Shown piece after piece: positions 8,724 through 9,389 of a DNA stretch of 64,000 nucleotides (positions are counted from its first letter, which is position 1; the number at the start of each line of letters is the position of its first letter). The DNA comes from Halobacteriales archaeon (GTDB lineage: Archaea > Halobacteriota > Halobacteria > Halobacteriales > Hikarchaeaceae), in the NCBI GenBank assembly GCA_022450005.1, contig JAKURE010000002.1:892-64891 (forward strand), given 5' to 3'. Below the pieces are notes generated by a model. The model was not told where the DNA came from, made no database searches, and saw nothing but the letters and a program-made list of their open reading frames with translations. A program made the position numbers and the translations under genes.

Positions 8724-9389
8724 ATGAATCACTCTCCATCCCTTAACCCGAACATTTGGTCTCCAATCCCTGCACCCCTAGAACGAATAGCATTTCAGCT
8801 CGCTTGGCCCATCATATTCATAAATTTACTTGGAACGGCATTTGGTTTCTGGTATTACCTCCCTCAACTTTCAACCGAACCCCTTTTGATGTGACCATTC
8901 GTCCCAGATAGCCCTATAGCAACTCTTTTTTTCGCTCTTAGTTTGGGACTTTGGAAATTGGGTAAAAATTCAATTTGGGTTTCATCTATAGCCTTTATAG
9001 GATGCATCAAACTTGGTCTATGGACGCCCTATGTTTTACTCATATTTTATTCTGATTTCTCATACCTTCATCCCTTAATGTACCATTTTCTTTTTTGGAG
9101 CCACCTTGCCATGGCTTTGCAAGCATTCTTAATTTTTAGATACACTACCTTTTCATTCATACCTATACTGGTGGGTGTTTCTTGGCATGCTTTTAACGAC
9201 CTAGTTGATTATTTTATCCCTTTACTTGGTTCTCCCCACCACACCTGGCTTCCCTCTGAAATGGTTGGAGGGGTCATAGATCACACTGGATCTGCACACC
9301 TCATGGCTGCAGCAGGAGCCGTATTATTAACCTGTATCTCTGTTGCTTTTCTGCTCATTTCAATATACTCCCCCTCTCAAAAATTATAA
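8724..9389 (+). pseudogene. DUF1405-family multi-pass membrane protein interrupted by one in-frame TGA (8892..8894)
   Basis: The track lists only 8943..9389, with a TTG start. The same frame is open from the ATG at 8724: MNHSPSLNPNIWSPIPAPLERIAFQLAWPIIFINLLGTAFGFWYYLPQLSTEPLLM-TGA-PFVPDSPIATLFFALSLGLWKL... Continuous hydrophobic helices run across the stop. Confidence 0.6.

What the first reader, a model, noticed from the sequence alone, without database searches (positions are those of the whole stretch)
8724..9389. DUF1405 membrane-protein gene carries a single in-frame TGA (8892..8894)
The ORF track shows only a 148-aa fragment with a TTG start. The same frame is open for 56 more codons upstream from a proper ATG at 8724. 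That stretch encodes a hydrophobic helix and then LLM-TGA-PFVPDSPIATLFF. From memory, DUF1405 proteins have a Trp immediately before the PDSP motif, so TGG to TGA is the simplest reading.

About 56 stop-free codons in roughly 40% GC DNA is unlikely by chance. The region is therefore, or very recently was, coding.

Four explanations are possible:
- an assembly or sequencing error
- a fresh nonsense mutation (pseudogene)
- a split gene re-initiating at TTG 8943
- local stop-codon read-through

Genome-wide TGA=Trp is excluded, because TGA terminates smc, ppsA and the methyltransferase gene.
Basis: partly seen in the sequence, partly recalled or inferred. Interest (0 to 1): 0.55.

Follow-up and report, generated by a model that had tools for sequence, protein, structure and literature searches.

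The report
Fresh nonsense mutation in archaeal DUF1405 gene
A marine archaeon's gene for a membrane enzyme (related to the Bacillus lipoprotein acetyl-transferase LhaT) carries one Trp-to-stop change that most of its own population lacks, so it is an ordinary, very recent knockout rather than a new genetic-code trick.

Summary
Frame 8724..9389 (+) encodes a complete 221-residue DUF1405 protein interrupted by one TGA (8892-8894) at a conserved Trp codon.

The window comes from a Marine Group IV (Hikarchaeia) MAG. GenBank annotates only the 143-aa C-terminal piece (MCH2453091.1).

- Seventeen independently assembled contigs of the same haplotype carry TGG. L083 is identical to the window over 4.3 kb except for this one base.
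- One other contig (L097, sample SAMN11874566) carries the same TGA on a slightly different background. The stop is therefore most likely a real, minority, very recent nonsense allele (W57*), not an assembly error.
- Both halves of the gene show strong purifying selection against relatives (dN/dS 0-0.11).
- TGA is a normal terminator here (20 of 57 ORFs), and no other gene of about 55 is interrupted. There is no tRNA, SECIS or significant RNA structure. Recoding is excluded.
- Re-initiation at TTG 8943/8958 would lose the invariant VPDSP motif.

One unexpected result: the same Trp codon is a stop (TGA or TAG) in at least three other haloarchaeal lineages, including the cultured Halonotius pteroides. 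DUF1405 genes are disrupted often and in many ways, so this may be coincidence or a modest hotspot.

Overall this is ordinary and of low to moderate interest.

The parts
8724..9389 (+). Interrupted DUF1405 (YpjA/LhaT-like) membrane-protein gene. The conceptual product is 221 aa with about 6 hydrophobic helices.
   Evidence: Pfam PF07187 at 150.7 bits across the stop. It is 99.5-100% identical to the intact 221-aa protein P0192 found on 6 contigs.
8892..8894 (+). In-frame TGA at codon 57 (W57*). A single G-to-A change at 8894 relative to TGG in the rest of the population. The context is ATG TGA CCA.
   Evidence: L083 is identical to the window from 8117 to 12409 except 8894 A/G. 17 same-haplotype contigs have G, and L097 has A.
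8724..8894 (+). N-terminal remnant ORF (56 aa). It holds the cytoplasmic N-terminus and TM1 only, and ends in the conserved EPxxM-W loop.
   Evidence: Compared with L001 there are 12 synonymous and 0 non-synonymous differences, so it is genuine coding sequence.
8958..9389 (+). C-terminal remnant as annotated in GenBank (143 aa, TTG start, MCH2453091.1). The 148-aa ORF from TTG 8943 is the mechanical ORF call. Both lack TM1 and the invariant VPDSP motif.
   Evidence: Exact-sequence look-up, ORF list, invariant columns.
7687..8595 (-). pdxS, the divergently transcribed neighbour. The pdxS-DUF1405 pair is conserved across Halobacteria and Hikarchaeia.
   Evidence: Pfam SOR_SNZ. The exact protein is MCH2453090.1. 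pdxS lies within 6 kb in 47 of 60 full-flank loci.
9384..10694 (-). Convergent neighbour, a DUF92 (PF01940) integral membrane protein. Its 3' end overlaps the DUF1405 stop by 6 nt. It contains the common population SNP 9880 C/T.

Best explanation
The window is from a Marine Group IV (Hikarchaeia) metagenome-assembled genome. In it, the single-copy core gene for a DUF1405 membrane protein has suffered a very recent G-to-A transition (8894) that turns the conserved Trp57 codon TGG into TGA. The protein is a homologue of Bacillus LhaT/YpjA.

TGA is an ordinary terminator in this organism, so translation stops after TM1. The product lacks five of about six helices and every invariant motif, which makes the allele a null, or at best a severe hypomorph.

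The allele is a minority variant segregating in a natural open-ocean population whose majority allele is intact. This MAG, and one other contig, captured the knockout.

Shown: the stop, its position, the intact sister allele, the normal stop usage and the past purifying selection. Inferred: that the allele is real rather than a read error, that it abolishes function, and the function itself. By homology to LhaT, that function would be transfer of an acetyl or acyl group from a lipid carrier to cell-surface lipoproteins.
For: 1. Identity and position. One Pfam DUF1405 alignment spans the stop. Trp occupies the column in 116 of 118 homologues and in 4 of 5 related MG-IV genomes, the fifth having Leu.
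2. Recency. L083 is identical over 4.3 kb, including all 666 bp of the gene, except 8894. No second lesion is present.
3. Past selection. dN/dS against L001, L002, L003 and L004 is 0-0.11 upstream and 0.04-0.11 downstream of the stop.
4. Polymorphism. 17 same-haplotype contigs from Tara, ENA, JGI and Logan assemblies carry TGG. L097 (ERZ23495447, SAMN11874566) carries TGA and differs from the window at 10 other sites, including the common SNP 9880.
5. TGA is a true stop. It ends 20 of 57 ORFs, with profiles covered to their ends (GatB 148/148, DHQS 344/344). The only other same-frame TGA junction (3672) separates two complete families.
6. DUF1405 is the only interrupted gene among about 55 in the window.
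7. The family tolerates loss. LhaT is naturally pseudogenised in the B. cereus group (PMC12345273). Haloarchaeal DUF1405 genes are found with stops, frameshifts and insertion junctions at many positions.
Against: No raw reads could be examined. The window's MAG and L097 might derive from the same sample, so the two TGA observations may not be fully independent.

The TGA-C context and the Trp identity of the lost codon leave room for some near-cognate read-through that would regenerate wild-type protein. In that case the allele might not be a complete null.

The biochemical function of archaeal DUF1405 is untested. The protein scores 93 bits against the NCBIfam LhaT equivalog model, whose cut-off is 255.
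Confidence: 0.72

Rival explanations
1. Sequencing, assembly or consensus error. The organism really has TGG, and the A at 8894 is an artefact of the MAG.
For: It is a single base in a metagenome-assembled genome. The identical haplotype with TGG exists in 17 other contigs.
Against: A second contig assembled separately (L097) has the same A at 8894 while differing at 10 other positions. It carries T rather than C at the common SNP 9880. The rest of the 64-kb window has no broken gene, and the contig is 66.8 kb long, which argues for adequate coverage.
Confidence: 0.15
2. Leaky stop. The mutation is real, but UGA followed by C is occasionally decoded by tRNA-Trp (near-cognate), giving a low level of exactly wild-type protein. 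The allele would then be a tolerated hypomorph, or an expression attenuator.
For: The lost codon is Trp and the context is TGA-C. In yeast, Trp is one of the residues inserted at UGA (PMC4150775). The same Trp codon is TGA-CC in two other lineages, L039 Halonotius pteroides and L111/L113-L115, which could reflect tolerance of this particular stop.
Against: - There is no evidence for read-through in archaea at this site.
- No significant structure follows the stop (z = -1.44).
- In the double-TGA lineage, post-stop changes are 4 synonymous, 3 non-synonymous and 1 indel, against 11:1 in the neighbouring gene. That indicates relaxed constraint.
- L118 and L119 have TAG at the same codon, which tRNA-Trp would not be expected to read.
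- The allele is rare in its own population.
Confidence: 0.08
3. Split gene. Ribosomes terminate at TGA and re-initiate at TTG 8943 or 8958, and the two polypeptides (56 aa and 143-148 aa) together, or the C-terminal one alone, provide the function.
For: GenBank and RefSeq annotate the C-terminal pieces as proteins (MCH2453091.1 here, WP_394343463.1 in H. pteroides). Termination-reinitiation exists in haloarchaea (PMC6728339).
Against: - The first in-frame start lies 48 nt after the stop. Coupling in H. volcanii was demonstrated for overlaps or gaps of at most 10 nt (PMC6728339).
- No SD-like GGAGG precedes either TTG.
- Residues 57-73 would be lost, including invariant V60, P61, D62, S63, P64, A66, T67 and F69.
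- No relative has a naturally split architecture. All intact orthologues are single 221-250-aa proteins.
Confidence: 0.03
4. Programmed recoding. TGA here encodes Trp (reassignment) or selenocysteine.
For: The TGA sits exactly at a conserved Trp column.
Against: - TGA terminates 20 of 57 ORFs, including overlapping ATGA junctions.
- No other in-frame TGA occurs in about 55 genes.
- No tRNA or Rfam element was found in the window.
- The aligned residue is Trp or Leu, never Cys.
- Near-identical genomes use TGG.
- A degenerate scan of JGI metagenomes for TGA-P-[FL]-V-P-D-S-P found only a chance hit.
Confidence: 0.02

Closest known systems
LhaT (YpjA) of Bacillus subtilis, lipoprotein heptaprenylglyceryl N-acetyltransferase, Pfam DUF1405 (PMC12345273)
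   Same: Same Pfam family over the full profile. The predicted multi-helix integral membrane architecture is the same. The NCBIfam LhaT model is the only NCBIfam hit. The paper notes co-occurrence of the family with PcrB-type enzymes in Euryarchaeota, and a PcrB-family gene is present in the window at 51507-52208. Haloarchaea make acetylated ether lipids with a YvoF homologue (PMC9179154).
   Different: The score is 93 bits against the equivalog cut-off of 255, so it is a homologue and not a demonstrated LhaT. In archaea, PcrB-family GGGP synthase is the essential lipid enzyme and says nothing specific. No YvoF-like acetyltransferase is in the window. Substrate and activity in archaea are untested.
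Natural pseudogenisation of LhaT in the Bacillus cereus group, by poly-Tyr insertion in B. anthracis (PMC12345273)
   Same: A member of the same family is inactivated in nature while close relatives keep it, implying the function is conditionally dispensable.
   Different: There the lesion is an in-frame insertion fixed in a clade and linked to immune evasion. Here it is a single nonsense SNP at low frequency in a free-living marine archaeal population, with no known selective rationale.
Ordinary nonsense polymorphisms or fresh pseudogenes in prokaryotic populations
   Same: One premature stop, no secondary lesions, an intact allele at 100% flanking identity, and historical dN/dS far below 1.
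   Different: Nothing essential differs. The only unusual aspect is that the same Trp codon is also a stop in other haloarchaeal lineages.

Membership tests
Pfam DUF1405 (PF07187) | HMM score above the gathering threshold over most of the profile | tested here: met
   150.7 bits against 25; profile 1-159/160 in one stretch across the stop.
Pfam DUF1405 (PF07187) | Family-invariant motifs encoded (NLxGTxFGFxYY, VPDSP, WSHL, ND..DYF, PHHT) | tested here: met
   All invariant columns of the 12-sequence alignment are present in the conceptual product.
NCBIfam NF052528 LhaT (equivalog) | Score at or above the curated equivalog cut-off (255 bits) | tested here: not met
   93 bits, residues 27-165 against profile 8-145/181. 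It is a homologue, not an equivalog.
NCBIfam NF052528 LhaT (equivalog) | Acetyl transfer from acetylated polyprenyl-glycerol to lipoprotein N-termini | not testable with these tools
   Biochemistry is known only for B. subtilis (PMC12345273).
Nonsense-mutated gene (fresh pseudogene or null allele) | Premature stop relative to orthologues, at a sense codon in close relatives | tested here: met
   TGG in L001-L005, L083 and 16 more contigs; TTG in L006.
Nonsense-mutated gene (fresh pseudogene or null allele) | The stop codon concerned functions as a terminator in this genome | tested here: met
   TGA ends 20 of 57 ORFs, with profile ends reached.
Nonsense-mutated gene (fresh pseudogene or null allele) | The variant is supported by reads, not a consensus artefact | tested here: inconclusive
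   No reads are available. A second, non-identical contig (L097) carries it, but independence of the samples is unknown.
Stop-codon reassignment (TGA = Trp) | TGA absent as a terminator, and frequent in-frame at conserved Trp positions | tested here: not met
   one in-frame TGA in about 55 genes, and TGA is the second most used stop.
Selenoprotein gene | TGA aligned with Cys or Sec in homologues, plus a SECIS element | tested here: not met
   The column is Trp or Leu. There is no Rfam hit in the window.
Programmed stop-codon read-through | Stop conserved among orthologues, with a stimulatory downstream context or structure | tested here: not met
   0 of 5 related MG-IV genomes and 2 of 19 same-haplotype contigs have the stop. 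The fold z-score is -1.44.
Termination-reinitiation split gene | Restart codon overlapping or within a few nt of the stop, with both products retaining the conserved parts | tested here: not met
   The next in-frame start is 48 nt downstream, and the invariant VPDSP region would be lost.

The most novel reading that the evidence does not exclude
The Trp codon of the W-P-x-V-P-D-S-P loop of archaeal DUF1405 is a recurrent, non-random nonsense site. It is a stop in at least four independent lineages: this MG-IV strain, Halonotius pteroides, a saltern Halonotius-like lineage and a Lake Tyrrell lineage. Two causes are possible. One is a local mutational hotspot (TGG-CC context). The other is that UGA-C at a Trp position is partly read by tRNA-Trp, so that such alleles act as tolerated or selected expression attenuators of a surface-lipoprotein-modifying enzyme rather than as dead genes.
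Probability: 0.08. Interest if true: 0.6.

Novelty: new member of a known kind. Interest (0 to 1): 0.25.

Why it matters
The practical points are these:
- The GenBank entry MCH2453091.1 (143 aa), and likewise RefSeq WP_394343463.1 of Halonotius pteroides, are C-terminal remnants of a nonsense-interrupted gene. They should not be treated as a short DUF1405 variant.
- The case shows how a MAG can fix a minority null allele as "the" genome sequence.
- It gives a clean negative control for stop-codon recoding screens. An in-frame TGA at a conserved Trp is not evidence of recoding when the population allele is TGG.

Biologically, it adds archaeal examples to the recent finding that LhaT-family genes are repeatedly lost in nature. 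That hints that the archaeal homologue's function, possibly lipoprotein N-terminal acetylation, is conditionally dispensable.

If the recurrence at one Trp codon proved non-random, it would point to a mutational hotspot or to leaky-stop attenuation in archaea. Neither is established here.

Tried and rejected
1. Genome-wide recoding. I scanned all six frames for stops flanked by at least 50 open codons and found 68 sites. After crude gene calling, only three same-frame adjacent ORF pairs remained: TGA 3672, TAA 50998 and TAA 54410. Pfam showed each pair to be two distinct complete genes.

2. tRNA and Rfam scans of the window found nothing.

3. Downstream RNA structure is not significant.

4. 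A degenerate scan of JGI metagenomes for TGA before P-[FL]-V-P-D-S-P-x-A-T gave one chance hit, L093. In hindsight the pattern was too narrow, because it excluded Val or Ile after Pro and so missed Halonotius-type cases.

5. The 92-aa and 103-aa "truncated" proteins on 17 contigs looked like further disrupted alleles. They turned out to be start-calling artefacts or contig-edge partials on intact genes, except L097.

6. GGCC (m5C) deamination hotspot hypothesis for TGGCC to TGACC. GGCC O/E is 0.92 in the window and 0.86 in L039, and GACC/GGTC is not enriched. TAG alleles also exist. The hypothesis is not supported, although the test is weak.

7. Shared ancestry of the Halonotius stops. This is rejected on parsimony, because each disrupted gene has closer intact relatives (95.9% and 89.4%) than the 85.3% between them.

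8. Continued selection on the double-TGA lineage. The counts (4 synonymous, 3 non-synonymous and 1 indel, against 11:1 in nikR) indicate relaxation but are too small to be decisive.

9. A PDB sequence search found no solved relative.

10. I could not determine which sample the NCBI MAG was assembled from.

Full report
**1. The observation**

On the + strand, ATG 8724 opens a frame that runs 56 codons (MNHSPSLNPNIWSPIPAPLERIAFQLAWPIIFINLLGTAFGFWYYLPQLSTEPLLM). It then meets TGA at 8892-8894 and continues PFVPDSPIATLFF... to TAA 9387-9389. The mechanical ORF list shows only the 148-aa TTG-start piece 8943..9389 and the 56-aa piece.

With Trp at the stop, the 221-aa product matches Pfam DUF1405 in a single stretch across the stop. 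The match is profile 1-159/160, 150.7 bits, cut-off 25. Alone, the N-terminal 56 aa match profile 1-20 and the 148-aa piece matches profile 40-159. The stop therefore sits inside one domain rather than between two genes.

68 stops here have at least 50 open codons on both sides, because the + strand is strongly C-rich. Homology and substitution pattern settle the matter instead (see section 3).

**2. Where the window comes from**

Exact-sequence look-ups place the neighbouring proteins in an NCBI MAG called "Halobacteriales archaeon", on a 66,848-bp contig. The proteins are MCH2453089 (homoserine kinase)..090 (PdxS)..092 (DUF92) and ..093/..094 (cis-prenyltransferases). MCH2453091.1 is the 143-aa piece of this gene starting at TTG 8958.

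The closest species-representative genome is Marine Group IV archaeon HikBin1. It has about 93% DNA identity and is collinear over window 2725-15459. Other MG-IV/Hikarchaeia MAGs follow (lineage described in PMC7599335).

The window is core chromosome. It carries the thermosome, LonB, SMC/ScpA, MetRS, AspRS, topoisomerase, trp and aro genes, all with full profile coverage.

**3. The gene was under selection on both sides of the stop**

All five related MG-IV genomes have an intact gene. Trp occupies the stop column in four and Leu in one. Across the best 118 homologues the column is Trp 116 and Leu 2.

Against the diverged allele on L001, the 33 differences inside the gene are almost all at third positions. 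There are 12 synonymous and 0 non-synonymous differences in codons 1-56, and 18.5 and 2.5 in codons 58-221. dN/dS against L001-L004 is 0-0.11 upstream and 0.04-0.11 downstream. The upstream 56 codons are therefore real coding sequence.

**4. The stop is one base on an otherwise identical haplotype, and it is polymorphic**

Logan contig L083 (SRR30264787) equals the window from 8117 to 12409 except 8894, which is G instead of A.

Looking up the proteins that gene callers produce from this locus gave 19 contigs of the same haplotype (at least 99% identity across the gene) that cover the site. 17 have TGG: L083, L094-L096 and L098-L110. They come from Tara Oceans, several ENA assemblies, JGI 3300032006 and Logan. 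Two have TGA: the window and L097 (ENA ERZ23495447, sample SAMN11874566).

L097 is not a copy of the window's contig. It differs at 10 positions, and it has T at 9880, a common C/T polymorphism in this population, where the window has C. The neighbouring sample SAMN11874567 (L098) has TGG.

The simplest reading is a real, low-frequency nonsense allele. An error remains possible, because I could not see reads or establish that the two TGA contigs come from different samples.

**5. Not recoding**

- TGA ends 20 of 57 crude ORFs, against TAA 25 and TAG 12. These include smc, ppsA, the methyltransferase, gatB, DHQS-II, topA, pdxS and uppS.
- Their Pfam profiles run to the last positions, and their lengths equal those of orthologues.
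- The only other place where a TGA separates two long same-frame ORFs (3672-3674, - strand) divides two complete, unrelated families: DUF7124 at 1-111/111 and DUF5815 at 3-155/155.
- No tRNA and no Rfam family is found in the window.
- The 111 nt around and after the stop fold no better than shuffles (z = -1.44).
- The sequence after the stop is identical in the TGG allele, so nothing has evolved to serve the stop.

**6. Not a functional split gene**

The next in-frame start (TTG 8943) lies 48 nt after the stop and has no SD-like motif. Termination-reinitiation in Haloferax volcanii was shown for overlapping pairs or gaps of at most 10 nt (PMC6728339).

A restart product would lack TM1 and the invariant V60-P61-D62-S63-P64, A66, T67 and F69. 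The 56-aa product keeps only TM1.

**7. What the gene probably does**

DUF1405 was functionless until 2025. B. subtilis YpjA was then renamed LhaT. It is an integral membrane enzyme that transfers the acetyl group of acetylated heptaprenylglycerol (made by PcrB and YvoF) to the N-terminal amine of lipoproteins outside the cell. The same paper reports natural inactivation of LhaT in the B. cereus group and points out the family's presence in Euryarchaeota (PMC12345273).

Haloarchaea possess a YvoF homologue and acetylated diether lipids (PMC9179154).

The window's protein hits the NCBIfam LhaT equivalog model at only 93 bits, where the cut-off is 255. It is therefore a homologue whose activity in archaea is inferred, not shown. 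No solved structure exists.

The gene sits divergently next to pdxS in 47 of 60 haloarchaeal loci, a conserved core position.

**8. An unexpected recurrence**

A check of the Trp column in the 80 species-representative loci found that Halonotius pteroides CECT 7525 (L039; cultured isolate, contig coverage about 152x in the record title) has TGA at the same codon (GCG TGA CCA). The gene is otherwise open. RefSeq annotates its 177-aa C-terminal piece as a protein.

Among those 80 loci only one other gene is disrupted, a frameshift in L044.

Following short protein calls led to two more lineages:
- A saltern Halonotius-like lineage, seen on four contigs from four samples (L111, L113-L115). It has two in-frame TGAs, both at conserved Trp codons, one of them this codon.
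- A Lake Tyrrell scaffold (L118) and a related short contig (L119). Both have TAG at this codon.

Each disrupted gene has closer intact relatives than they have to each other, so the events look independent.

I temper this finding in four ways.
1. Cases beyond L039 were found by looking at fragments that begin just after the motif, which biases the sample toward early lesions.
2. A survey of fragment end-points shows that this subfamily is broken at many other positions by frameshifts and insertion junctions. With many independent knock-outs, a few coincidences at a codon with two transition routes to stop are expected.
3. In the double-TGA lineage, changes accumulated since the stops are 4 synonymous, 3 non-synonymous and an indel, against 11:1 in the adjacent nikR-like gene. 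That is what a decaying pseudogene looks like.
4. A GGCC-methylation hotspot finds no support in oligonucleotide composition.

The recurrence is recorded as unexplained, not as evidence of function.

**9. Verdict**

The best explanation is a fresh, minority nonsense allele (W57*) of a conserved but dispensable LhaT-like membrane enzyme gene in a marine Hikarchaeia population. The allele was captured by this MAG and mis-annotated as a 143-aa protein.

My confidence estimates are:
- Real nonsense allele: 0.72.
- Error: 0.15.
- Tolerated leaky stop: 0.08.
- Split gene: 0.03.
- Recoding: 0.02.

It is a new instance of a well-known kind of event. Interest is low to moderate, raised slightly by the same-codon recurrence in other haloarchaea.

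Noticed in passing
L039:6145-6147 (Halonotius pteroides CECT 7525); L111:309-311 and 267-269; L113, L114, L115; L118:249-251; L119:563-565: The same conserved Trp codon of DUF1405 is a stop in other haloarchaeal lineages. It is TGA in the cultured H. pteroides. It is TGA, plus a second TGA at another conserved Trp, in a saltern lineage seen in four samples. It is TAG in a Lake Tyrrell scaffold and a related contig. The events appear independent, and the cause (coincidence, hotspot or tolerance) is unresolved.
   Followed up: partly
window 9111-9389 and 8579-8725; loci L094-L096, L098-L103: On at least 9 contigs where the gene is intact, automated gene calling reported only a 92-aa product starting at ATG 9111, which is preceded by a GGAG. 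It also reported a spurious 48-aa antisense ORF over the true start. Short DUF1405 entries in protein databases are therefore often start-calling artefacts, not truncated genes.
   Followed up: yes
window 8735-9215 compared with flanks 8468-8723 and 9390-10164 (against L001): Relative to L001, SNP density is about 5% inside the DUF1405 gene but below 1% in the flanking pdxS and DUF92 sequence. This suggests that a diverged allele of just this gene was exchanged by recombination within the population.
   Followed up: no
window 7687-12343; loci L002-L081: The divergent pdxS-DUF1405 arrangement is conserved in 47 of 60 haloarchaeal loci. The downstream cluster (DUF92, a 202-aa UppS-like gene and a 313-aa UppS) is adjacent only in MG-IV genomes and a few others.
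   Followed up: partly
window 10775-11383: The 202-aa 'undecaprenyl diphosphate synthase family protein' matches only the C-terminal half of the cis-prenyltransferase profile (positions 115-219 of 219), yet its length is conserved in many genomes. It may be a non-catalytic or partner subunit encoded next to the full-length UppS (11402-12343).
   Followed up: no
clusters of P0212 and P0226; fragments P0312, P0357, P0374, P0383, P0386, P0392: The Halonotius-type DUF1405 subfamily, which has an extra FLATVTPPPQVVP loop, occurs at about 90% identity in several genera (Halosegnis, Haloplanus including a plasmid copy, Haloarcula, Salinigranum). It lies next to ABC-ATPase and nikR genes rather than pdxS, which suggests a horizontally mobile paralogue. 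Several fragments share the junction peptide VIVAIIFGTTS, suggesting a recurrent deletion or insertion allele.
   Followed up: no
window 12410-12475: Alignments to L002, L003 and L005 break between 12409 and 12476, and contigs L083 and L091 end exactly at 12409. This is a short strain-variable or hard-to-assemble intergenic segment upstream of the eIF5A gene.
   Followed up: no
L044:6486-6498 (Halobacteriaceae archaeon CCUG 34874): The DUF1405 gene shows a frameshift near residue 190, seen as two tblastn segments in different frames. It is the only other disrupted copy among the 80 species-representative loci.
   Followed up: no
window 1-64000: GC skew is negative in every 2-kb bin (-0.01 to -0.39), and cumulative skew falls monotonically. 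The whole window therefore lies on one replichore and has an unusually strong C-over-G bias on the + strand. This bias inflates the number of long spurious open frames.
   Followed up: no
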